A DNA stretch of 64,000 nucleotides, from the IMG/VR virus record IMGVR_UViG_3300037851_000671, positions 1-64,000 of that record; one strand, given 5' to 3'. Positions 4,823-34,127 of this stretch are shown piece by piece; within the stretch, counting starts at the first letter, position 1, and each line of letters opens with the position of its first letter. The notes beneath the pieces were generated by a model that searched no databases, had not been told where the DNA came from, and saw only the letters and a program-made list of their open reading frames with translations. This stretch comes from a virus (taxonomy: Duplodnaviria; Caudoviricetes). A program made the position numbers and the translations under genes.

Positions 4823-4896
4823 CAAACAAATTTGTGGCATTCTCCAGTATTTAGATATGCATATGAAAGCTGTGCATGTTTTTACTGGAGAATTTG

Positions 4897-7850: not shown

Positions 7851-9704
7851 ATGAGTAAAGGCGGCAATAAATCAAGAGCAGAACAATTGCTTGAGCAGAA
7901 GAAGACACTTCCTCCTGAATTATCTGATAGGATGGCACGTAGCGTAAGTGATTATAGGCGTGGCACTCTCGGAGAAGAGTTGGAATCTGGAATGTATAGG
8001 GAAAAAGGATCGTCTATGTATAAGGGTTCATCATCTCCTGATGAGGCAATGTTCAAGCCATCAATGCTTGGTATGATATCACACTCAAGCGGTGGTAAAA
8101 ACATTTACAAGAAAGGTGATGGCAGCAGTTCAAATGTAGGGACTCAACCATCAAGCAGTTGGCGAGGATCGAACAACACAGACAGGCAAATACCAGAAGT
8201 ATACTCGCCATTGTGGCTCAACTCGAACCTGAACCTTCCAAGAGACAGAACCACAATCAATGCCTGGAGCCGTTCGTTCTTTGCCCTGAATCCAATTGTT
8301 CATAATGCCATTACTCTTCACTCTACATACCCAATTGCCAAACTCAATATCAAGTGCAAAGACCCAGCGATAGAGAAGTTCTTTGCCCAGATGATTGATG
8401 AGATTGACCTCATGAATGTCTGTACAATGATTGCTCAGGAATACTACATTCTTGGCGAAGCATTTGTGTATGGTGAGTTGAATGAGGCTACAGGCAAATG
8501 GTCACGCCTCATGATATTGAACCCTGACTACATCAACGTTCAGCGTTCAGTTATAGCCGCTGAGCCAATCATCAGTTTGCGTCCAGACGAAAACCTGAAG
8601 CGTGTTGTGTTTGGTAACAAGCCAGCAGATATACAGCAGCGTAAACAGCTGGATCCTAGCATCATTGAGCATGTACGCAGGAATGAGAACATACCTCTCA
8701 ACAACTTCTACGTATCCCATATTGCCAGAAGGATTTCGCCGTATGAGATTCGTGGAACTGGCATTATCGTAAGCGCTTTCAGACCACTCATGCTTTTTGA
8801 TAAGTTGAGAGAGTGTAAGTATGCGCAGGCTGATAACATGATCAATCCTCTCACATTGGTGAAGATTGGTGATGCAGAATTCAAGCCAGGTCCAGCAGAT
8901 CTTGAGCATTGGAGAAACGTATTCGAGGAAGGTGAGAGCGATAAGAATTTCAAGATATTTACACACAACTCAGTGACAGTTGAGCGTGTTGGTTATGGAC
9001 AGGGTATTTATGATACGTCCAATGATATCACCCAGTTGATCAAGGAGATTTACATTGGGTTGATGGTGCCGTCTGTGATTATGGATGGCAGCGATACGAC
9101 CTATGCCACAGGAAGCGTTGCGCTGGATGTTTTGAGACAGCGTTACATGCAGTTCAGAAACTACATGTCCAGCTGGCTAAGGAATAGAGTTTTTGCTCCA
9201 ATATCACAGATCAACGATTTTTATGAGTATGTTGATGGCGAGAAGGTGCTGATTGTTCCAGAGGTTGATTGGAATCATATGTCATTGTTTGACATGGATA
9301 CTTTCATTAACAACCTAATCAATCTATCTCAGGGTGAGGGTCCTGCCAAGAGAGTTTCTTTGCAAACGCTGTATAGAAGCATTGGTTTGGAATATGAAGA
9401 GGAGCAGCGTAAACTCAGATACGAAGCAATACAAGATGCTATACGTCAAAGAGAGCTGGCTTCATTGCAGAAGTACAGTTTGCATGAGTTGAAATCGCTT
9501 GGACCGAATGATGATATTGAGGAAGTTACACAAGAACCGGTGCCTGGTGAGAGTCCGTACATCTCTGGTGCTGGTGGGGCACCTCCGGGTGCTCCTGGTG
9601 GCGGCGGAGGCGGAGCACCACCTCCACCTCCGGGCCTTGGACCAATGCCAGGAGCACCTCCACCTCCTCCAATTGGTGGTGGCGGAAAGCCACCTGGACC
9701 ATGA
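7851..9704 (+). CDS. Portal protein with Pro/Gly-rich C-terminal tail
   Basis: Immediately after terL; 617 aa; portal-like segments HIARRISPYEIRGTGII and NPLTLVKIG; tail GAPPPPPGLGPMPGAPPPPPIGGGG. Confidence 0.85.
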   Translation: MSKGGNKSRAEQLLEQKKTLPPELSDRMARSVSDYRRGTLGEELESGMYREKGSSMYKGSSSPDEAMFKPSMLGMISHSSGGKNIYKKGDGSSSNVGTQPSSSWRGSNNTDRQIPEVYSPLWLNSNLNLPRDRTTINAWSRSFFALNPIVHNAITLHSTYPIAKLNIKCKDPAIEKFFAQMIDEIDLMNVCTMIAQEYYILGEAFVYGELNEATGKWSRLMILNPDYINVQRSVIAAEPIISLRPDENLKRVVFGNKPADIQQRKQLDPSIIEHVRRNENIPLNNFYVSHIARRISPYEIRGTGIIVSAFRPLMLFDKLRECKYAQADNMINPLTLVKIGDAEFKPGPADLEHWRNVFEEGESDKNFKIFTHNSVTVERVGYGQGIYDTSNDITQLIKEIYIGLMVPSVIMDGSDTTYATGSVALDVLRQRYMQFRNYMSSWLRNRVFAPISQINDFYEYVDGEKVLIVPEVDWNHMSLFDMDTFINNLINLSQGEGPAKRVSLQTLYRSIGLEYEEEQRKLRYEAIQDAIRQRELASLQKYSLHELKSLGPNDDIEEVTQEPVPGESPYISGAGGAPPGAPGGGGGGAPPPPPGLGPMPGAPPPPPIGGGGKPPGP

Positions 9705-18064: not shown

Positions 18065-21000
18065 ATGACTCTAATCAAACTTGGAGAGGCTGTTCAGTTA
18101 GATCCTCGTTCTTTAAGATCCGTTGATGCTTTTGCTGGTGATGTTGATTTGGACATTGATGGAAAAATGTACAAGTTCGCTCAGCAGCTCAAGGTCATTG
18201 CACCACAGGCAAAGGACTTTTTGTACTTTACATGTGTGATGATGCATGCGGCTGAAGCGGCTCTTTTGAATGACGACGGATCGTTGAAAAAACACGCAGA
18301 CGGCAGACCAGTATCTGCTGGCTGGGAAAACACACCCAATGGCGGTGTAAAATGGATATGTAGCGACCCAGGTATAAGGGCCTACAAGAACAACAATAAC
18401 GACATATTCCCAGAGTTAGAGCTAAAGACAGCTTACAAGAAATGGGTGGGTCGTCCTCTGTGCCTCGATCATAAGTCAGATTCTGTTGACAAGATTCGAG
18501 GCGTTATTGTTGATACGGTATGGGATGACAAGCGCAAGAGAGTGATTGCTCTGTGTGCTTTGGACAAGAAGAACTACCCAGACCTAGCTGATAAAGTTTC
18601 CTCTGGTGTGGCCGCCAACGTATCTATGGGTACTGCGGTTGGTAGGGCCGTTTGCACCGAGGCTGGATGTCATCGTGTTGCAAGAACTGAAAAAGATTTC
18701 TGCGCACATATGAGAAGCAAGACATGCTACGGAGAAATAAATCTTGACCTTGCCCCAATAGAGTTGTCTTTGGTGGTTAATGGAGCGGATCCAAAAGCCA
18801 AGGTAAAGCATGTTATAGCACAAGACTTAGGTAAGGCAGCGGAGTTGCTGACAGACTATCTTAGCTTAAAAGAGTCTGCCAAGAAAGTATCTACGCAAGA
18901 TCTGGCATCAATAAAAAGAGACCTTGCCCACCTGAGTGACAAGCTTGCACAGCTTGAAAATGGTGATGAAAATGATTCGGGCGTAGTTGAAGTGTCGAAG
19001 GCAACACGTACCCCAGCAAGTGTCAATATACATTCGACAGAAAAAACAGCATCGGAGGAAGATGAAATCCCACCGTATGCTTCTGAGTTACAGAAAGCAA
19101 TTCTGCGAGCACATACAAAAATTGCATCTCTGCAAGACAACTTTAACAGACTTTCTTCAGTTTCGAAGAGCGAGGAACAAAACATGAGTACAAAACGCGC
19201 ATATTATCAGGGAACCGTGGAGCCAAAGCCAGGCGATACCATGTACCAACCAGATCCGTTAGCCGATAAGGCGAGGCTGATGGACAAACACCTACATGGC
19301 CCAGGGGCTTTCCCTGACGTAGGCGATGTTGAGGGAATGTATCCGGGCATCACCCAGGATGACAAGGATCTCAAGAAGACCCTTCAGCGTTTGGCTGACG
19401 AAGAGGAGAGGGCAATGTTCCGTGAGGCAGCTCTCAAGAAAGCCAAGGAACAGCTGATGAAGCGTCATGCTTATATACAGGGCACCACAGAGCCAAATGC
19501 TGGCGGTGTAACTTACAAGCCAGATCCATTGGCTGATAAGGCTCGTGAAGAGGATAAGCACCTTGAGGGCGCTCCTCCATTCCCAGGTGTTGGCAAGGTT
19601 GACGGTCTCTATGATGATGACCTCGCTACAAAAGAGAAGCTTTCCCGTGCCGGTCTCAGGGCTAGATTTGAGAAGGTTGCATTCCCAGATGGTCGTTTGA
19701 ATAAGGCCGCTTCTCGTTGGGAAGTATATGCTGGAAACAAGCTCGTTCTTGCTGCTACCGTTGATCAGATTACAAAGGGAAATGCCCGTCATCTGTATGA
19801 AGCTGTTGCCACCAAGCGTTTTGGTGAGAGTCTTTTGAGCAGAATCAAGACAGAAGGATTTCAGGCCACAGCCAACGCCATGTTGAAGAGCGCTGCGGAT
19901 CCAGCCCCTGCCGCTGATCCTGCCGCTCCAGCTCCAGCCCCAGCAGCTCCTCCAGCGGGAGATGCGCCAGGTCTTGAGCCTCCAAAGGATGTTGACGCAG
20001 CTGCTCCGGCAAATGTTCCAGACATTGCAAAAGACATTCAGGATCTTGGAGATGAGCTTGTTCAGAAAGCGAATGATCTTGTTGAAGCTTCTGGATCGGT
20101 TGATAAGGATGCCAAGAATCTTGAAGGTGTACCAGAGGCCGGTGCAGATGAGTTCAAGGCTGCCGAGCAGGGTAAGCCACAGAAAGACGCCGCTCTTCAG
20201 AGCATGCGTAAGACTGTAAATGGTATGTTGCGTGATGGAATTCGTGAGACAGCGGGTAATCTGCTCAGTCATGCGAAGGAGCTTCATACAGCTCGTGAAG
20301 TATACTTGACAAGCTACGCTTCCATGTCCCCACAGCAACGTCAGTATTTGAATGCGCTCACAGTTGATGCTGTACAAGATGCTAGAGCGCTATTGGCAGA
20401 AACAACTAAACTCATGGGCGCTGTGATCAAGTACGCGTATGGTACGGCTGAGCTTGAGAAGCGCGCAGGAGCAAATTCACAAGGAGCGCTTATGAGCTAT
20501 GCCGAAGACGATGAGAACGATGCAAAGAAGGGCAAGAACCCATTCGCCAAGAAGGATGAGGACGATAAGAAAGACGACGATGAGGATTCAAAGAAGTGCA
20601 AGGACGATGAGAACGATCTGAGTGATAGTGATATCAACGATCTCATGAAGAGCCTGAGCGATGAGGATGATTGCGGTTACATGGACGAGAATGATCTTGT
20701 TCCTCAAACCGCAAATAAGCCAGCTACCCCTCAGCCAGCAATACCACCAGGACAGGGCAAGCCAGCTCCAGGTCCAGCACCAACACCAGTTCCTGCACCA
20801 GCTCCAGCTCCACAGGATGAGGACGATTTGTTCAAGTTTGATGATGAGAATGATTTGTTTGCTGATGACGACGCTGACGCTGATGACAATGACTCTGTCA
20901 AGCTCGATGTAGACGATGCCGGCAAGATCGGAATTTCTACAGCGGCTGGACGTGCAGCTCTCCGTACCAAGATTGCAAAGGACGGACTACTCGGATTCAA

Positions 21001-21664
21001 CGAGCTTAGTCAGCAGGCTCACCCACGTGGTAGCGCAGAGATCCCAGGCAAGCTTGACACGAAGCCATCCGTTGAGTCCAAGTTCCACGTGTTCAAGGAC
21101 CTCAAGGAGCAGATGCTTGATCTGGCTCACATGCCACCAAAGGTTCGCAAGCAGGCTGAGGAGATTCAGCGCTTGATAACGGCCGGACAGCTCAAGGTTG
21201 CCGACGTTGGACAGCTTGCTTCCTTCGGTGTTGATCAGGCAGCTATTGCATTCTGGAAGGAGCTGTATGGTCAGGGCGATTCCAAGAGCAAGGAGTTCGC
21301 AAAGGAACTGACTTCTGAGCATGAGACTCAGAAGCGCGCTGAGGATGCCCGTATATACGAAGCCCGTGTAAAGCGTGCTTATGACCTGGCTTACGAGATG
21401 CGTGAGAGAGGAATGATTGAAGGCAGCCAGATGAAAGAGCAGGTTGACGAGATCATGAAGTGGAATGATGACGGATTCACCTCTGTAAAGAGAATGATTG
21501 GTCGTCAGCCAGTGGTCAAGCAGGCTTCTGTTCCGATGGTTGGTTTGCTTCACTCCGGTGATGTAATTCTCCCAGCTGCTGGTGCTTTCTCGGCATCCGG
21601 CGGAAATGGCGACGGTGATATCAAGAACTATTTCGACAGCTACTTCGCTAACAAGAAGTTCTAA
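18065..21664 (+). CDS. Prohead maturation protease fused to a long scaffold-like region
   Basis: HK97/assemblin-type motifs PLCLDH (His), NVSMG (Ser) and IELSLVVNGADPKA; Cys/His cluster CTEAGC..FCAH; C-terminal acidic, coiled-coil and Pro/Ala segments. Confidence 0.85.
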   Translation: MTLIKLGEAVQLDPRSLRSVDAFAGDVDLDIDGKMYKFAQQLKVIAPQAKDFLYFTCVMMHAAEAALLNDDGSLKKHADGRPVSAGWENTPNGGVKWICSDPGIRAYKNNNNDIFPELELKTAYKKWVGRPLCLDHKSDSVDKIRGVIVDTVWDDKRKRVIALCALDKKNYPDLADKVSSGVAANVSMGTAVGRAVCTEAGCHRVARTEKDFCAHMRSKTCYGEINLDLAPIELSLVVNGADPKAKVKHVIAQDLGKAAELLTDYLSLKESAKKVSTQDLASIKRDLAHLSDKLAQLENGDENDSGVVEVSKATRTPASVNIHSTEKTASEEDEIPPYASELQKAILRAHTKIASLQDNFNRLSSVSKSEEQNMSTKRAYYQGTVEPKPGDTMYQPDPLADKARLMDKHLHGPGAFPDVGDVEGMYPGITQDDKDLKKTLQRLADEEERAMFREAALKKAKEQLMKRHAYIQGTTEPNAGGVTYKPDPLADKAREEDKHLEGAPPFPGVGKVDGLYDDDLATKEKLSRAGLRARFEKVAFPDGRLNKAASRWEVYAGNKLVLAATVDQITKGNARHLYEAVATKRFGESLLSRIKTEGFQATANAMLKSAADPAPAADPAAPAPAPAAPPAGDAPGLEPPKDVDAAAPANVPDIAKDIQDLGDELVQKANDLVEASGSVDKDAKNLEGVPEAGADEFKAAEQGKPQKDAALQSMRKTVNGMLRDGIRETAGNLLSHAKELHTAREVYLTSYASMSPQQRQYLNALTVDAVQDARALLAETTKLMGAVIKYAYGTAELEKRAGANSQGALMSYAEDDENDAKKGKNPFAKKDEDDKKDDDEDSKKCKDDENDLSDSDINDLMKSLSDEDDCGYMDENDLVPQTANKPATPQPAIPPGQGKPAPGPAPTPVPAPAPAPQDEDDLFKFDDENDLFADDDADADDNDSVKLDVDDAGKIGISTAAGRAALRTKIAKDGLLGFNELSQQAHPRGSAEIPGKLDTKPSVESKFHVFKDLKEQMLDLAHMPPKVRKQAEEIQRLITAGQLKVADVGQLASFGVDQAAIAFWKELYGQGDSKSKEFAKELTSEHETQKRAEDARIYEARVKRAYDLAYEMRERGMIEGSQMKEQVDEIMKWNDDGFTSVKRMIGRQPVVKQASVPMVGLLHSGDVILPAAGAFSASGGNGDGDIKNYFDSYFANKKF

Positions 21665-21685
21665 TACACCGAGCTAAGGAAAGGG

Positions 21686-21717
21686 TTGTGGGGACTGGCG
21701 GATAGCTAGTCCCCCAA
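21686..21717 (+). other. Intergenic stem-loop (no U tract; stabiliser or weak terminator)
   Basis: ggggact (21690-21696) pairs with agtcccc (21708-21714). Confidence 0.6.
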
Positions 21718-21748
21718 TCTTGATATCTTGAACAATAGGAGAATTTCA

Positions 21749-22675
21749 ATGAAATTTGACATAGCTAATAACATGAACCAGATCCTTGGCAGCCAAGAAT
21801 ACCGTAAGGTTTTTGAGCGTCCAGCTTTGCAGAAAAAAGCATCTTCACAAGAGGCATCAGGCCTTGAGTCTTTGGCAGCCGAACTGTCCAAGATATCTGA
21901 GAAGCTTGACAATGCTGGTTTGGAAGAGGGTGCAAAAACAGCTCTTAAGGCAGTTGCAGCCATGATGAAAGAGGCCCGTTCCAAGAAGGCGTGGCAGGAT
22001 GAATCTTCTGATGAGGGAGATGTCAAGATGCCAGCATGGAAACGTGACTTTTATTCAGACCCAAACAGGGTTGATTTCAAAGACCCAGAAGACATAGAGG
22101 TAGAACCACTTACTGAGGACGATCTTGACGGTGAAAAACTTCTCAGGATGGAGTTGAAGCCACGTGAACCAGAGGAACTTGATATTCCTGGTGATTCACT
22201 TGTGCAAATAACACCAAGAAAGCCAATTGATGATCCTGTTGGAGAGATGGTTGGCGAGCCACAGTTTGACATTGCGGATGTTGTTTGTGATGACGACGAT
22301 GATGTTCCAACAAACAAGGCAGCTTTCTTGAAGGCAATCGACAAGGCAATTTACCGTCAGGCGTTTCTTGATGAGATAGAGCGCGCGATTTTGGTTGTTG
22401 AAGCTGCTGATAAAAAGAAGAAAGCAGATCCAAAGGCTGAGGTCAGGAATCGTCCAGCACCAGTGTTTGATGCCAAGCACCCAAAGGTAAAGGACAATAA
22501 GGACCACTTCCCAATTGATACGATTGGAAGGGCAAGGAATGCATTGGTCAGAAGTCATCAGTTTGATGGCGCACCTCCATGGTGGAAGGGTTCCTTGAAG
22601 GAGCTTCAGAACGCTGTGGCGAAAGCGGTACACGGCAAGTATCCGGCCATTGGAAAGGAAGACAAGAAGAAGTAA
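21749..22675 (+). CDS. Putative internal head protein
   Basis: ATG 21749 after AGGAGA; QKKAS, SKKAW and YRQAF motifs; helix LSKISEKLDNAGLEEGA. Confidence 0.75.
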   Translation: MKFDIANNMNQILGSQEYRKVFERPALQKKASSQEASGLESLAAELSKISEKLDNAGLEEGAKTALKAVAAMMKEARSKKAWQDESSDEGDVKMPAWKRDFYSDPNRVDFKDPEDIEVEPLTEDDLDGEKLLRMELKPREPEELDIPGDSLVQITPRKPIDDPVGEMVGEPQFDIADVVCDDDDDVPTNKAAFLKAIDKAIYRQAFLDEIERAILVVEAADKKKKADPKAEVRNRPAPVFDAKHPKVKDNKDHFPIDTIGRARNALVRSHQFDGAPPWWKGSLKELQNAVAKAVHGKYPAIGKEDKKK

Positions 22676-22709
22676 TGCGGGCGCTTGAGCAGCTTATCAA
22701 CAAAGGAAA

Positions 22710-22922
22710 ATGATGAGAGATTTTTCACAGAGTTTAGAGAACGCGATGGCTGCAAATCTATCTGGGGCCAATGTAAAGTTGGCCTCAGAAGAGAGCGCTA
22801 TCAATCATCTTGAGAAGGCTCATAACATCTTGATTAATGCTGGATTTGAAGAGTATGCCAGTGATGTTGGTAAGATTTTGTACTCATATGCTAGCATTGG
22901 GGATATAGAGGTGGAACTATGA
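22710..22922 (+). CDS. Small putative internal head protein
   Basis: VKLASEE; helix LEKAHNILINAGFEEYA. Confidence 0.75.
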   Translation: MMRDFSQSLENAMAANLSGANVKLASEESAINHLEKAHNILINAGFEEYASDVGKILYSYASIGDIEVEL

Positions 22923-23260
22923 GATGGAACAACCTTTCCGGTGATGAGATTTTTGAGGCAATGGAAAGGATTGGTTTATCAAAAGTTGCATCTGAAGATT
23001 CAGCTGATGACGAGGCGATAGTTTCGGCATTGGAAGAGTTGGACGCAGCGGCTCAGAGTTTTGAGGCTGCTGGATTAGTGAGACAGGCTAGGCAGGTTTC
23101 TGAACTTATGACAGTGGTAGCAGCAAAGAAAAAACCACCGGTAAAGAACAAGCCAGCAAAAAAAGGCGTAAGTGAAGAGGCCAAAAAGGTACTTAGGATG
23201 TTTGGTTTTTCTGATAAAGACCTTGAGGGCCATGAAACAGATTCAGACAACCTAAAATAA
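22919..23260 (+). CDS. Small putative internal head protein
   Basis: LSKVASED; helix LDAAAQSFEAAGLVRQA. Confidence 0.75.
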   Translation: MRWNNLSGDEIFEAMERIGLSKVASEDSADDEAIVSALEELDAAAQSFEAAGLVRQARQVSELMTVVAAKKKPPVKNKPAKKGVSEEAKKVLRMFGFSDKDLEGHETDSDNLK

Positions 23261-23270
23261 GGAGATACAC

Positions 23271-23540
23271 ATGAGCAGCTTGAAGAAAATCGCAATGATC
23301 GCCGCAAAGAAGGCAGCAATCGAAACCTATCGTTCCATCATGAAAATGGCCGAGAGAGCCAGGGATGAAGCGGGCCTTTTGCAGTATACAGCCGAAGAGC
23401 TTGGTCAGATGAGACCAAAGGGCGAGACTATGCAAATTGGAAATCCAATTGGTTATGGCTACATTGGAACTGAAAAATGGAACGTTTACGGCGCACCTTT
23501 GAACAAGGATAACGTAGCACTTCTTTACAAAGCAATGTAA
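23271..23540 (+). CDS. Leader-paralog A (shared 28-aa leader plus unique cargo)
   Basis: MSSLKKIAMIAAKKAAIETYRSIMKMA; RBS AAGGAG. Confidence 0.8.
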   Translation: MSSLKKIAMIAAKKAAIETYRSIMKMAERARDEAGLLQYTAEELGQMRPKGETMQIGNPIGYGYIGTEKWNVYGAPLNKDNVALLYKAM

Positions 23541-23557
23541 TATGCGATAGGTAATGT

Positions 23558-23962
23558 ATGTCAAAGATCAAAAAGATAGCAATGATCGCAGCTAAAAAGG
23601 CTGCAATCGAAACATATCGCTCAATCATGAAACTGGCCGATGGTCTTTTTGAGGCTAAGCCAATACTTGATGTAAATAAACAACCTACTGGACATGTTGA
23701 CGAGGATGAATTACTCTCATTCTTGAGAAACAACGGTGCCAAAAACGTTGCTGAAACTGTTCGTGGAGCAGATATGGGAACGGATGGCGAAAAGGTTCTG
23801 AAGGACCCGGCAACTCTTAAAAGAGAATGGGCCGGAGTAAAGGGTAAAATTGGTCCAAAGACCACAGCTATCATAATCCAGAGGGTATATGATAATACTG
23901 GCAACGAAGTAGATCCTGCCACAGGTAAAAATTATCCAAAGGTAGATCTCAAACAACCATAA
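23558..23962 (+). CDS. Leader-paralog B (shared 28-aa leader plus unique cargo)
   Basis: MSKIKKIAMIAAKKAAIETYRSIMKLA; the cargo contains GKIGPKT, reminiscent of PG-binding motifs. Confidence 0.8.
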   Translation: MSKIKKIAMIAAKKAAIETYRSIMKLADGLFEAKPILDVNKQPTGHVDEDELLSFLRNNGAKNVAETVRGADMGTDGEKVLKDPATLKREWAGVKGKIGPKTTAIIIQRVYDNTGNEVDPATGKNYPKVDLKQP

Positions 23963-23983
23963 CCAACAAATAGCAACGTCGAT

Positions 23984-24016
23984 AAAGCCCCGGCCTAAAA
24001 TCCGGGGCTTTGTTGT
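23984..24016 (+). terminator. Probable intrinsic terminator
   Basis: aaagccccgg-cctaaaat-ccggggcttt followed by gttgt. Confidence 0.75.
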
Positions 24017-24052
24017 TATATCTACCATTATAGCCTATAGGAGATAGCACAG

Positions 24053-24748
24053 ATGACACTAAAAATAGTTCAAGTAGGTAACTCACTTCCAGTATCATAC
24101 CCAGTTGATTCAAACGCAGAATTTGAGCCTGGAATGATTGCGCAATTCAAGTTATCAGGAAACCAGATTGTTGTTGGCGTAAGCGACGGACGCGCACCAT
24201 TTGGCATTATAGACGATTACAAAACAAGGGCATTCTCAGCACCGTCCATTGATGAAGAAGTAATTGCCGTTGCCCCTGCTGTTATTGAGCAGGACGGAAG
24301 GCTGGTTACTGCCACCGATGTGAAATGGGAACTCAAAAATCCAAACGTAATTCCGCAAAGCTTCGTAACAAGCCCGGTTGATGTTCACTTGAATCCACGT
24401 AATGGAATCGTGACTTTCCCGGCAGGAACGCCATTGAACTTTGATGATAATGGTGATGGTCTTATGGATTCAATCAGAACGGTTGTAAGCTATACCTATC
24501 AGATTCCCAACATATCAGGAGATGACTCTACTCTGGCCAGCGGTAAGGTTACGATATGGTTCCAGAGAGGAATATTCCAGACTGATAAGTATGAGACAAA
24601 TCAGAGGTATCCATTGAATGCTATTCTGTTTGTTTCTCCTAATGGTATGCTTACAACGGAACAGCCAAGCGAAGAACATCCTGGTGTTGCGATTGTGACC
24701 GGACCTCCAACAGCTTTGTTCAGCACCCTTGAATTTGAGTGGTTGTAA
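24053..24748 (+). CDS. Head decoration/cement-like protein (paralog 1)
   Basis: Shares GVSDG..PFGII, ASGKVTIW and LFVSPNGMLT with 24752 and 33107; beta-rich. Confidence 0.65.
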   Translation: MTLKIVQVGNSLPVSYPVDSNAEFEPGMIAQFKLSGNQIVVGVSDGRAPFGIIDDYKTRAFSAPSIDEEVIAVAPAVIEQDGRLVTATDVKWELKNPNVIPQSFVTSPVDVHLNPRNGIVTFPAGTPLNFDDNGDGLMDSIRTVVSYTYQIPNISGDDSTLASGKVTIWFQRGIFQTDKYETNQRYPLNAILFVSPNGMLTTEQPSEEHPGVAIVTGPPTALFSTLEFEWL

Positions 24749-24751
24749 TCT

Positions 24752-25153
24752 ATGTTCAAGATAGTTGAATGTGCTTTTACACATCCAATAAGGATGCCAG
24801 TAAAACCAGGAATACGAATAAGTGCTGGGCACATAGTTAGAACTATTGATTACAAAAATCATGTTGTTGTTGATATTAGTGATGGGTATAGTTTTCTAGG
24901 AGTGGCCGGCAACAGGTGTAAGGGCGGGGCAGAAGTTGACTATGGGAATGTGGTCAAGATTTTCCCACAGCGCATGGTGTTGAGAATTGACAAGTATGAC
25001 AAGAAGTACCCAATGGGAGCGGGAAGCTCGTTGTATGTTGGGTTCGATGGAATTCTGACTTCAAGGAAGCCGCATGAAAGAGCGGTTATTACTGCCAAGG
25101 TGATATCACCAGAAACAGAAGAGCGGAAGTTTATTGAGATCTTGTATTTGTGA
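24752..25153 (+). CDS. Head decoration-like protein (paralog 2, compact/diverged)
   Basis: DISDGYSFLGV, IDKYD and LYVGFDGILT align to 24053. Confidence 0.6.
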   Translation: MFKIVECAFTHPIRMPVKPGIRISAGHIVRTIDYKNHVVVDISDGYSFLGVAGNRCKGGAEVDYGNVVKIFPQRMVLRIDKYDKKYPMGAGSSLYVGFDGILTSRKPHERAVITAKVISPETEERKFIEILYL

Positions 25154-25224
25154 AGATGCTGGTAACAGTGCATAAGTTCACATTCAATTGATACCTTGTT
25201 GGGTATGTTGTATAAAGGTGTTTC

Positions 25225-25551
25225 ATGGTAATGGACGAAGTTTGGAAGGAATTTTTCACTGACCATCAGACCGCTCGCGCACTGGATAGCTCAGAGGTTT
25301 TCCGTGAATATGCGAGAGCTGAGTTAGCTCGTGATGAGTTGAGGAAGCGTGCCCAGGCTCAAAACAGCATGGACGCCAGAATCCAAGAGCTTAACGAGAT
25401 AGAAGAGATGAATCGTAAAGTGGCTAGCGATCCTGCGCTTAAAGCGAAGCTTCGTCAGGCACGTGATTATCTTGAGGAGCATCCAGAGGCAGTGGCGGGT
25501 GTTGATCAAAACTTTGTTCGTGGACTGAGCCTACTTGACCTTGAGGACTAA
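25225..25551 (+). CDS. Putative internal head protein
   Basis: SEVFREYAR motif; LRKRAQ site. Confidence 0.7.
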   Translation: MVMDEVWKEFFTDHQTARALDSSEVFREYARAELARDELRKRAQAQNSMDARIQELNEIEEMNRKVASDPALKAKLRQARDYLEEHPEAVAGVDQNFVRGLSLLDLED

Positions 25552-25554
25552 AAC

Positions 25555-27357
25555 ATGAAGATTGGACTTGCAAAGCAATCATTTCAGAATCTATACGGCT
25601 CCGAGGTATATCGTGAGCTTGAGCGTCAAGCTGTGCGCAAAGGACACTTTGAGCCAACACCAGCGGAGCAGGTTAAGCTTGCATCCAATGAGCTTGCCAT
25701 ATCGAAGCGTGTGAATGCAGAGGTTGATCTGACACCTAGCAGTGACCTGTCACAGGACATTGCCAAGCTTGCCCATGCTCTTCGTCGCAAGGGATACGTC
25801 AAGCAAGCTGAGGATCTTGAATCAAACTTTGTGTTGTTCAAGCAGGCCGAGACAGCTTTGTACAATGTCAACAACGAGAGGGCTAAAGAGCTTATGGAGA
25901 TGGCGCATTCCGATGGGGATGTGGACATTGTTGATGGTGGGGAGCTTGGGGAGATTGAGACAATTCAGAGCGCGGCGGATAAGATACTTGCCGTTGTGAA
26001 CAAGAAGCCAACGGGGAAATTGGCTTCGATGGCAGCTCTGATTATGAAAAGGGGAGAGGTGCCAATTGGACCACCAACCGCTGAACAGGCAGCTGCTGCG
26101 ACAACTACCGGAACTAAAGAGCGTTCCTTGAAGATTAACAAATCAGAACGAGAATGGTCACAAGAACTGGCAAAAGTGAATGCGGCTCTTGGTACCATAG
26201 CAGCGGCCATACCAGAACAGCCAATACCAATTAGCAACAGTCCTTTGGAATGGGATGAAGCTGCAACACAAAAGTTTAGTGTGTATAGTGGTATTAGACC
26301 TGATGTTGCAAAAAAAGGTGTTGATGCAATGAGGAAAGCCAATGCTTCTGGTGTTTTGGAACATGGTGGTTTTTCACTTAATGCACAGTATGTCAAATCT
26401 ATTATCTATAAAGATCCAATGACTAATACTAATTTCATGGATTTTGTTAGGTTCCTTGGTGTTGACCCAAATTATTTTGGCGCCAATGGAGAAAAGGGTT
26501 GTTTTAGCTACTGGATGGAAGACCCAGGTGCGGTAGAGTTGATAAAAGGTATTTTGGACTGGAGTAACCCATTAGGAGTATACCAAAGGATATTTGGACA
26601 AGACGAGGTAAACAAATCTCCTAAGTCCATATACTACCAGACAAGAGTAGTGTATGGACAGCCAGGTTTTATACCTCGTGTTGAGGCTAATATACAAGCC
26701 CTAACCAGCGACATAATTGCAATATTCAACGGCATAATACAAGCTGCCTTTGGAGGCGATGGTGTAAATATAACCAAAGCACAGCAGATTATGAAATCTG
26801 ATTTCGACAAGATTAGACAGTCTGTTTCAAAAGCATTGACACCAGATGTTGCAAACGAAAGTGGAAAATTCAACGTACAAAAAGCACAATCAGTCCTAAG
26901 TGAACTTGATAAAAACCAGAACATCATAACAAACAACAATGATGCTTTTGAGAGAATAAAGGCAACAGATACTGGTTTGGCTACCAAACTACAAGGCGCT
27001 ATAGCTTCTTTTGGTAAGGTTTTGGAAAGTTCTGTGTCTAAAATGCGTGAGTTCAGTAAAGTCGGGGACGAAAATGTTGTGGCTTATATTGCAGAACTTA
27101 AACAGTGGCAAGATCTTTGGAAGCGTGTTGCTACCCACGCTGCGGCAACTGATGAAGAAAAAATGATTTCTAACAAGAACAAAGATGCAATTGATGATGC
27201 TTTGGCAGCAATTCAGACCGGAGATTTTGGCGAAATATCAGATGGTCTTGGGTTGAATATCAAGAACATGAAAGATTTGAACAATTACTTTGAGACAAGT
27301 ATAAGGACGCCTGGTTTGGACAATTATTTGAAGGTTCTAGACAAAAAGGTGAAGTAA
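25555..27357 (+). CDS. Putative internal/ejection protein
   Basis: SEVYRELER; KLAS and KQAE sites; the N-terminal domain aligns with 30675. Confidence 0.65.
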   Translation: MKIGLAKQSFQNLYGSEVYRELERQAVRKGHFEPTPAEQVKLASNELAISKRVNAEVDLTPSSDLSQDIAKLAHALRRKGYVKQAEDLESNFVLFKQAETALYNVNNERAKELMEMAHSDGDVDIVDGGELGEIETIQSAADKILAVVNKKPTGKLASMAALIMKRGEVPIGPPTAEQAAAATTTGTKERSLKINKSEREWSQELAKVNAALGTIAAAIPEQPIPISNSPLEWDEAATQKFSVYSGIRPDVAKKGVDAMRKANASGVLEHGGFSLNAQYVKSIIYKDPMTNTNFMDFVRFLGVDPNYFGANGEKGCFSYWMEDPGAVELIKGILDWSNPLGVYQRIFGQDEVNKSPKSIYYQTRVVYGQPGFIPRVEANIQALTSDIIAIFNGIIQAAFGGDGVNITKAQQIMKSDFDKIRQSVSKALTPDVANESGKFNVQKAQSVLSELDKNQNIITNNNDAFERIKATDTGLATKLQGAIASFGKVLESSVSKMREFSKVGDENVVAYIAELKQWQDLWKRVATHAAATDEEKMISNKNKDAIDDALAAIQTGDFGEISDGLGLNIKNMKDLNNYFETSIRTPGLDNYLKVLDKKVK

Positions 27358-33899: not shown

Positions 33900-34127
33900 A
33901 TGTCTTTTTTTAATACACAGGGCACCGTAAATGCCACCAGTTTGAAGGATGCATTGAACACAATCGTTCGTTATGCATCGATCCTCGAAGAGGGACAGCC
34001 CTCCAACATGCAGCTTGCCGGACAGCCAAGCCTAAACAACGAGAAGCGTGATGAGCTGATTTCTCGTGCGATTCTGACACAGGAAGGAAAGATTGCCCTT
34101 GCCCAGGCCATGGCGAACCCAATCCGT
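33900..34127 (+). CDS. Major capsid protein, exon 1 (76 aa)
   Basis: Ends ...EGKIALAQAMANPIR; joins in frame to RNLDYQGIARR at 35295, giving a 336-aa HK97-type MCP. Confidence 0.9.

What the first reader, a model, noticed from the sequence alone, without database searches (positions are those of the whole stretch)
23271..23962. Twin genes: identical 21-aa leader under purifying selection, fused to unrelated cargo
Seen: KKIAMIAAKKAAIETYRSIMK is identical in both proteins, yet 10 of the 21 codons differ silently and none non-synonymously. The leader ends in K-M-A or K-L-A, after which the sequences are unrelated. This is direct evidence of a conserved modular N-terminal tag. Inference: a transferable capsid-loading leader removed at K-x-A, which could be usable for packaging foreign proteins.
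Basis: seen in the sequence. Interest (0 to 1): 0.8.

Follow-up and report, generated by a model that had tools for sequence, protein, structure and literature searches.

The report
Shared N-terminal tag on phage proteins
Two neighbouring small genes of an uncultured giant freshwater phage start with the same 25-residue helix. It belongs to a tag family found on at least 24 different protein bodies in related phages and most likely marks proteins for loading into the phage head, as a known tag does in phage T4, though this is untested.

Summary
ORF1 (23271-23540, 89 aa) and ORF2 (23558-23962, 134 aa) share residues 5-25, KKIAMIAAKKAAIETYRSIMK. Ten codons differ silently and none changes the residue (pS 0.77, pN 0; chance about 1e-7). 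After K25-x-A27 the two proteins show no detectable similarity.

The twins are not an isolated pair. The closest relative, a 336-kb record, has at least six such genes scattered across its genome. A profile of the leader finds about 40 clusters among 1.84 billion proteins, and all but one hit lie at the extreme N-terminus of proteins of 38-268 aa. These carry at least 24 cargo types.

Conservation stops sharply after K(P3)-x-A(P1)-Q/D/E(P1'). The same [IVLM]-x-[KR]-x-A motif is enriched in the adjacent 1199-aa protease-scaffold fusion (10 sites against 1.9 expected). It also sits at residues 22-27 of the capsid protein.

My best reading is a T4-like capsid-targeting propeptide cut after Ala. 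Both the targeting and the cleavage are inferred, not shown. The scan has reported many similar shared-leader systems on other phage DNA. This one is a new variant: a long Ala-rich helix, a K-x-A border, a two-helix form, and a phage-G-type protease.

The parts
23271..23540 (+). ORF1, 89 aa: leader (aa 3-27) plus a 62-aa cargo of no known family
   Evidence: no Pfam or PHROG hit; AF2 models aa 3-37 as a helix
23283..23345 (+). ORF1 leader core, residues 5-25, KKIAMIAAKKAAIETYRSIMK
   Evidence: matches the leader profile at 63.8 bits
23343..23351 (+). ORF1 K25-M26-A27, the predicted processing border; the predicted mature N-terminus is ERARD
   Evidence: family-wide K-x-A border; cleavage itself is inferred
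23558..23962 (+). ORF2, 134 aa: leader (aa 3-27) plus a 107-aa cargo. The cargo's counterpart in relative G001 (48% identity) also carries the leader but lies far from the head module.
23570..23632 (+). ORF2 leader core, residues 5-25, identical in protein sequence to ORF1's, with 10 silent codon differences
23630..23638 (+). ORF2 K25-L26-A27, the predicted processing border; the predicted mature N-terminus is DGLFE
   Evidence: cleavage inferred
23259..23264 (+). AAGGAG ribosome-binding site of ORF1
   Evidence: read from the sequence
23980..24015 (+). intrinsic-terminator-like hairpin (14-bp stem, T-rich tail) closing the unit after ORF2
18065..21664 (+). 1199-aa head-maturation protease (aa ~100-250) fused to a scaffold-like region. 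It is the presumed processing enzyme and carries 10 [IVLM]-x-[KR]-x-A-[QDESAG] sites.
   Evidence: phrog_18299 at E 6.6e-15; nearest cultured relative is Bacillus phage G gp19; 10 sites observed against 1.9 expected, and several are kept in orthologues
33963..33980 (+). Capsid protein exon 1, residues 22-27, I-V-R-Y-A|S: same pattern as the leader border at about the same distance from the N-terminus
   Evidence: [KR]-Y-A-[SA] kept in 5 relatives

Best explanation
ORF1 and ORF2 are two members of a clade-specific family of small phage proteins. Each consists of a strictly N-terminal Ala-rich amphipathic helix of about 25 residues (consensus KKIAxxAAKxAAIETYRSIMK-x-A) joined to a hypervariable body. 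[quoted passage not shown] One conserved face (A-AA-TY-I-A) would dock the precursor onto the scaffold core or the inner shell of the prohead. The head-maturation protease fused to the scaffold (18065-21664) would then cut after the Ala of K-x-A. That would leave the cargo (mature N-termini ERARD... and DGLFE...) inside the head, to be delivered with the DNA. Shown here: the tag, its purifying selection, its N-terminal position, its spread over many cargos and scattered genes, the sharp K-x-A border, and the recurrence of that motif in head proteins. Inferred: docking in the prohead, cleavage, packaging and ejection.
For: 1. Purifying selection: 10 silent and 0 replacement changes in 21 codons, with silent sites saturated. 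This rules out recent duplication or gene conversion.
2. Modularity: relative G001 has at least 6 leader genes, at 37, 180, 211, 240, 289 and 306 kb, and a seventh lies on the parent contig. A leader profile finds 41 hits at E<1e-3 among 1.84 billion representative proteins. All but one lie at residues 1-47 of proteins of 38-268 aa. The cargos fall into 24 clusters among 42 proteins and none has a consistent family match.
3. Border: K at P3 in 36/42, A or G at P1 in 42/42, Q/D/E at P1' in 38/42, then conservation collapses. Two-helix forms have a K-x-A after each helix. P0005 repeats the half-leader AIETYRSIVKQA|S internally.
4. Head context: the gene sits between the protease-scaffold gene and conserved head genes in every close relative.
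5. Motif elsewhere: [IVLM]x[KR]xA[QDESAG] occurs 27 times in the head module against 10.0 expected, and 54 against 37.5 in the rest of the genome (binomial P=3e-6). The scaffold protein has 10 against 1.9 expected, with the twins excluded from the count. Scaffold sites are kept in orthologues and lie at borders between conserved blocks and variable linkers. The capsid protein has I-V-R-Y-A|S at aa 22-27.
6. Precedent: the T4 CTS on diverse internal proteins (PMC3012670); short 20- and 24-residue propeptides in SPN3US (PMC10052503).
Against: There are no virion proteomics or mature N-termini for this phage or any relative, and the phage is uncultured. The specificity of this protease clade is unknown; I found no cleavage data for phage G. 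K-x-A-Q could simply be a helix cap at a domain border. The K-x-A sites in two neighbouring small proteins (22710 and 22919) are not kept in orthologues, so the motif is not a universal signal. The motif is also 1.4-fold over shuffled expectation outside the head module, and it was defined after seeing the data. Most leader genes in G001 and in metagenome contigs lie among non-structural genes. That fits T4-like cargo but gives no head linkage.
Confidence: 0.5

Rival explanations
1. The helix is a retained functional domain, not a removable address. In this reading the family is one paralogous group whose conserved N-terminal helix binds a common partner (itself, the scaffold, DNA, a membrane or a host target). 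The C-terminal region evolves very fast or is poorly constrained. No cleavage occurs and the proteins need not be in the virion.
For: The conserved residues form one helical face of small residues plus Tyr and Ile, typical of tight helix packing (positions). Many relatives carry two tandem helices that could form a hairpin domain. ORF2's cargo shows weak profile similarity (55% probability, E 1e-4) to the cargo of some two-helix proteins, which hints at descent rather than shuffling. The K-x-A in neighbouring small proteins is not conserved.
Against: Conservation stops exactly at P1' and is followed by Pro-rich or unrelated sequence in 24 cargo clusters. P3 Lys lies off the conserved face yet is kept in 36 of 42 proteins, which suggests a separate recognition role. 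The same pattern recurs in the scaffold and the capsid protein. The half-leader carrying the border is repeated inside P0005.
Confidence: 0.3
2. The leader is a signal for a host system rather than for the capsid. It could be a membrane-targeting amphipathic helix or secretion signal, or a mimic of a host protein's N-terminus that a host protease cuts, as in staphylococcal phage 80alpha with Prp.
For: [quoted passage not shown] The leader is basic and amphipathic.
Against: The hydrophobic run is only 6 residues and is interrupted by KK. P3 is Lys, whereas signal peptidase needs a small residue at -3 (established rule, from my own knowledge), and there is no lipobox Cys. The profile search of 1.84 billion proteins returned only small proteins with the same N-terminal tag architecture, apart from one weak internal hit in a 4312-aa protein, and no recognisable cellular protein with this N-terminus. 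The phage has its own protease next to the genes.
Confidence: 0.08
3. The identity is a by-product of a recent tandem duplication or gene conversion, or an RNA/DNA-level element, with no protein-level meaning.
For: The two genes are adjacent and in the same orientation.
Against: Silent sites are saturated (pS 0.77) while replacement sites are unchanged. By my reading of the codon table, the longest identical nucleotide run is about 11-12 nt. Related leaders occur in other genomes at scattered loci.
Confidence: 0.01

Closest known systems
Capsid targeting sequence (CTS) of phage T4 internal proteins IPI, IPII, IPIII and Alt, removed by prohead protease gp21 (PMC3012670; Mullaney and Black 1996, as cited in PMC10052503)
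   Same: A short tag at the extreme N-terminus of otherwise unrelated, fast-evolving small proteins encoded at several loci. The tag ends at a motif that also occurs in scaffold and capsid proteins, and a prohead protease is encoded in the head module.
   Different: There is no sequence similarity to the T4 tag. The helix is about 25 residues rather than about 10. The border is K-x-A followed by Q/D/E, not L/I-x-E. Many members have two tandem helices. The protease is of the phage-G / PHROG 18299 type and is fused to a ~900-aa scaffold, not T4 gp21. Packaging is not demonstrated.
Propeptides of head and ejection proteins in the giant phages phiKZ, 201phi2-1 and SPN3US, cut at A-x-E by gp175/gp245 (PMC10052503)
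   Same: A giant phage in which several head proteins lose N-terminal propeptides, some only 20-24 residues long. The cleavage motif recurs in many head proteins.
   Different: In those phages the propeptides are not one shared sequence on unrelated bodies. The motif is different, and A-I-E inside this leader is not conserved across the family.
Shared N-terminal cleavage motif of 80alpha capsid and scaffolding proteins and ribosomal protein L27, cut by the host protease Prp (PMC5744158)
   Same: One conserved N-terminal sequence on non-homologous phage proteins, ending at a defined cut site before Ala or after a small residue.
   Different: In 80alpha the motif copies a host protein and a host enzyme cuts it. 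Here no host counterpart was found and the phage encodes its own protease next door.
Herpesvirus assemblin cleavage sites, (V/L/I)-x-A|S (Welch et al. 1991 and DiIanni et al. 1993, cited in PMC4498786; the consensus is from my own knowledge)
   Same: Ala at P1 and a small or polar P1' residue. The protease is fused to the scaffold precursor and its substrates include the scaffold itself. Phage prohead proteases share the assemblin fold (established knowledge).
   Different: P3 is Lys or Arg here, and P1' in the leaders is mostly Gln, Asp or Glu. The resemblance is a lead only and no cleavage was tested.
Earlier findings of this scan: shared N-terminal leaders on unrelated proteins of large uncultured phages (e1-1165449, e1-5370560, e1-5368281 and others)
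   Same: The same architecture and the same proposed function.
   Different: Those leaders are shorter (8-24 residues), several of those listed end in I/L-x-E or L-N-E, and several belong to phages with T4-type head genes. This one is a different sequence family with a K-x-A border.

Membership tests
T4-type capsid targeting sequence / internal proteins | Tag at the extreme N-terminus of otherwise unrelated proteins | tested here: met
   The leader starts at residue 1-8 in nearly all of the 41 profile hits. P0012 has an apparently mis-called start, and P0039 (4312 aa) is a weak internal hit. There are 24 cargo clusters.
T4-type capsid targeting sequence / internal proteins | Tag ends in the gp21 site L/I-x-E | tested here: not met
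   The border is K-x-A. An A-I-E inside the window leaders is replaced by INT, VST, ISA or LAT in relatives.
T4-type capsid targeting sequence / internal proteins | T4 gp21-type prohead protease in the genome | tested here: not met
   The protease domain matches phrog_18299 and has no Pfam hit. Its nearest cultured relative is phage G gp19 at 33% identity.
T4-type capsid targeting sequence / internal proteins | Tagged proteins are packaged in the head and the tag is removed | not testable with these tools
   The phage is uncultured and no proteomics exist. The complex prediction gave no answer.
Sec-type signal peptide | Hydrophobic core of 7 or more residues and small residues at -3 and -1 | tested here: not met
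   The core IAMIAA is followed by KK, and -3 is Lys in 36 of 42 proteins.
80alpha / Prp shared leader | The motif copies the N-terminal extension of a host protein (L27) and ends F|A | tested here: not met
   No recognisable cellular protein with this N-terminus among 1.84 billion representatives. The border has no Phe.
Assemblin-like cleavage site | Ala at P1 with a small or polar P1', used by a protease fused to the scaffold | tested here: inconclusive
   P1 is Ala in 37 of 42 proteins. P1' is Q/D/E in the leaders, S in the capsid protein and in some scaffold sites. Cleavage is not testable.
   No Pfam family for ORF2 at E up to 1.

The most novel reading that the evidence does not exclude
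The 25-residue helix plus K-x-A is a portable address label of a phage-G-like lineage of giant phages. Any protein that carries it is loaded into the prohead and trimmed by a protease with assemblin-like Ala specificity. The roughly 24 cargo types would then be a rapidly changing arsenal of injected proteins, for example anti-defence factors. Searching for the tag would be a purely computational way to list the injected proteome of uncultured giant phages.
Probability: 0.4. Interest if true: 0.6.

Novelty: new variant of a known kind. Interest (0 to 1): 0.5.

Why it matters
Proteins injected with phage DNA are the first phage weapons to meet host defences, and in uncultured giant phages they are almost impossible to identify. 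A recognisable address tag would pick them out from sequence alone. It would also give a test set of cargo bodies with no known family. In addition, it would define the specificity (K-x-A) of a head protease clade, the phage-G type fused to its scaffold, for which I found no cleavage data. The idea itself is not new. T4 established it, and this scan has met similar shared leaders in many other large phages. The gain is therefore one more independent version, not a new principle.

Tried and rejected
- **Word-indexed protein searches.** Searches with ORF1 and ORF2 found only the two proteins themselves. The family appeared only with a leader profile against the exhaustive library.
- **Phage collection.** DNA search of 18100-26000 gave nothing useful, and the 231-aa neighbour had no tblastn match.
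- **AF2 models.** ORF2 reached pLDDT 50 and ORF1 pLDDT 56. The ESM Atlas model of ORF2 has no neighbour above TM 0.42.
- **Complex prediction.** The protease domain (280 aa, 10-row alignment) was run with the leader segment (36 aa, 12 rows). The result was no answer, score 0.01, and I do not use it either way.
- **Marginal Pfam hit.** The 80-aa G001 leader protein hit HK97-gp10_like at 24.1 bits. Its homologue P0011 did not repeat the hit, so I treat it as unreliable.
- **ORF1 cargo in G001.** I first read ORF1's cargo as an orthologue of the syntenic G001 cargo. BLASTP gives E=1.9, so only synteny and the leader link them.
- **A-I-E as a phiKZ/T4-like site inside the leader.** Rejected, because the Glu is not conserved in the family.
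- **K-x-A in the small proteins 22710 and 22919.** The motif is not conserved in orthologues.
- **Parent contig of G001.** The 455-kb contig could not be searched.
- **Phage G literature.** No cleavage-site data found.

Full report
**Observation**

The window is the first 64 kb of a 218,772-bp IMG/VR record of an uncultured giant phage, estimated to be about half complete. Earlier notes of this scan call it a freshwater phage. ORF1 (23271-23540, 89 aa) and ORF2 (23558-23962, 134 aa) lie head to tail on the + strand.

- Residues 5-25 (KKIAMIAAKKAAIETYRSIMK) are identical in the two proteins. Of these 21 codons, 10 differ and all ten differences are silent.
- Nei-Gojobori counting gives 13 synonymous and 50 non-synonymous sites, Sd=10 and Nd=0. 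That makes pS 0.77, which is saturated, and pN 0. The chance that ten random changes all fall at silent sites is 1.4e-7.
- Residue 27 is Ala in both proteins. In the next ten codons pN is 0.74.
- The two bodies are not alignable: BLASTP gives E=4 and hhalign gives a probability of 0.2%.
- By my reading of the codon table, the longest identical nucleotide run is about 11-12 nt. Recent duplication, gene conversion and a nucleic-acid element are therefore excluded.

**Context**

All genes nearby are on the + strand and form a head module:

- Large terminase at 4876, carrying a LAGLIDADG insert, and portal at 7851.
- A 1199-aa protein at 18065-21664. Its N-terminal part matches a head-maturation protease (phrog_18299, E 6.6e-15). 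Its nearest cultured relative is gp19 of Bacillus phage G. The remaining ~900 residues look like a scaffold.
- Three small helical proteins follow, then the twins, then a strong terminator (23980-24015).
- Two conserved paralogous proteins of 231 and 133 aa come next, then larger head proteins.
- The capsid gene follows, with its first exon at 33900.

**The twins belong to a family**

Relatives were fetched through the conserved 231-aa neighbour.

- Every close relative (neighbour at least 70% identical) with sequence available there has a leader gene in the same slot. More distant relatives do not, including a 301-kb record.
- The closest relative is G001 (336 kb). Its neighbour is 83% identical and its protease 76% identical. 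It has at least six leader genes, at about 37, 180, 211, 240, 289 and 306 kb. A seventh lies on the 455-kb parent contig.
- The G001 gene at 211 kb is the counterpart of ORF2: 48% identity in the cargo, E 2.6e-13. It lies about 170 kb from the head module.
- The G001 gene in the head slot shares only the leader with ORF1. Its cargo shows no similarity (E=1.9), although the flanking genes are about 80% identical.
- A 36-column leader profile searched against 1.84 billion representative proteins returned 41 hits at E<1e-3. All but one (a weak hit inside a 4312-aa protein) lie at the very N-terminus of proteins of 38-268 aa.
- The hits fall into two architectures. One has a single helix ending K-x-A followed by D, E or Q. 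The other has helix A, then a linker containing K-[VIT]-A, then helix B ending [KR]-x-[AG]-Q, and then the body.
- After removal of the leaders, 42 proteins fall into 24 clusters by BLASTP and by phmmer. None has a consistent Pfam or PHROG match.

**The border**

I anchored the 42 proteins on the end of the last helix.

- P16, P13 and P12 are Ala in 37-40 of the 42 proteins, and P8 is Tyr in 39.
- P5 is Ile or Val in 40. P3 is Lys in 36 and Arg in 3.
- P1 is Ala in 37 and Gly in 5. P1' is Gln, Asp or Glu in 38.
- Information content then drops from about 3.8 bits to about 0.7 bits and stays low.
- P8, P5, P3 and P1 were partly fixed by the anchoring pattern. The Ala positions, P1' and the collapse after P1' were not.
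- On a helical wheel (my calculation), P16, P13, P12, P9, P8, P5 and P1 fall within one 140-degree arc, which marks a packing face. The conserved Lys at P3 points elsewhere, as expected if it serves a different recognition role.
- One G001 protein (P0005) repeats only the second half of the leader, AIETYRSIVKQA|S, inside its body.

**Does K-x-A look like a protease site?**

I used the pattern [IVLM]-x-[KR]-x-A-[QDESAG], taken from the leaders, with a crude gene call that happened to omit the twins.

- The head module has 27 sites against 10.0 expected from shuffling. The rest of the genome has 54 against 37.5 (binomial P 3e-6).
- The protease-scaffold protein alone has 10 sites against 1.9 expected.
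- Several scaffold sites are kept in five orthologues and lie where conserved blocks meet variable or Pro-rich linkers. Examples are LLK-S/T-A just before a Pro/Ala run, ELEKRA before a variable acidic region, and VVKQA|S.
- The scaffold repeats are also preceded by K-R-A-Y-x-Q-G and L-S-R-A in distant relatives.
- The 600-aa protein at 25555 has two sites that keep x-A|[SAG] through indels.
- The capsid protein has I-V-R-Y-A|S at residues 22-27, and [KR]-Y-A-[SA] is kept in five relatives.
- Against the idea: the sites in the small proteins at 22710 and 22919 are not conserved. The pattern is also somewhat over-represented everywhere, and it was defined after seeing the data.

**Mechanism**

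The best-supported reading is a T4-like address tag. In T4 a conserved capsid targeting sequence is the only shared feature of a diverse set of internal proteins, and it can carry foreign proteins into the head (PMC3012670). Short 20-24-residue propeptides are also known in the giant phage SPN3US (PMC10052503).

Here the helix would dock the precursor in the prohead core, and the protease fused to the scaffold would cut after Ala27. The Ala at P1 and the protease-scaffold fusion recall herpesvirus assemblin. I recall that consensus from memory, so it is only a lead.

The main rival is that the helix is a retained binding or oligomerisation domain of a fast-evolving family and is never removed. 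A host-directed signal is unlikely, because the tag has a short interrupted hydrophobic core, Lys at -3, and no recognisable cellular protein with this N-terminus.

**What could not be settled**

- Both AF2 models were poor, so structural homology of the cargos is not excluded.
- The complex prediction gave no answer.
- I found no cleavage data for this protease clade.

**Novelty**

The principle is known from T4, and this scan has reported many comparable shared leaders in other large phages. This case differs in several ways:

- The tag is a long Ala-rich helix with no similarity to the T4 tag.
- The border is K-x-A.
- A tandem two-helix form exists.
- The protease is of the phage-G type and is fused to its scaffold.

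I rate it a new variant of a known kind, of moderate interest.

Noticed in passing
L010, L011, L012, L022 (protease gene of relatives): The protease domain is split. tblastn places residues 23-111 and 110-280 about 1.1 kb apart in L010/L011 and about 0.5 kb apart in L022. L012, near its locus edge, shows only the second piece. This suggests an intron or intein inside the head protease gene of some relatives.
   Followed up: no
window 24053-24748 and 24752-25153: The 231-aa and 133-aa proteins just downstream are paralogues (BLASTP E 1e-8). The 231-aa protein is conserved in more than 90 metagenome loci. Neither has a Pfam or PHROG family.
   Followed up: partly
window 23428-23922 (- strand): An antisense ORF of 164 aa overlaps both twins and is longer than either. 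A longest-ORF gene call picked it instead of them, so automatic annotation may miss the twins.
   Followed up: partly
L114:778-1584:- (G001, about 289 kb; protein P0005): This 268-aa leader protein repeats the second half of the leader (GAIETYRSIVKQA|S) in the second half of its body. That is a possible second processing site.
   Followed up: partly
window 21728-22675, 22710-22922, 22919-23260: The three small proteins between the scaffold gene and the twins share a helical motif, roughly A(I/L)xxLxxAxxxLxxAG. The motif recurs in the syntenic genes of distant relatives. They look like small scaffold-like paralogues.
   Followed up: no
window 23271-23540 compared with L111:1495-1770: The cargo in the head-module slot differs beyond recognition between two phages whose flanking genes are 76-83% identical. 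The slot is hypervariable or has been swapped.
   Followed up: partly
L113:1348-1587:- (G001, about 306 kb): This 80-aa leader protein gives a marginal Pfam match to HK97-gp10_like (24.1 bits, cut-off 21.4). Its homologue P0011 does not repeat the match.
   Followed up: partly
window 18065-21664, residues about 197-215: A Cys/His cluster (C197, C202, C213, H215) inside the protease domain is invariant in 10 relatives. It may be a zinc-binding insert.
   Followed up: no
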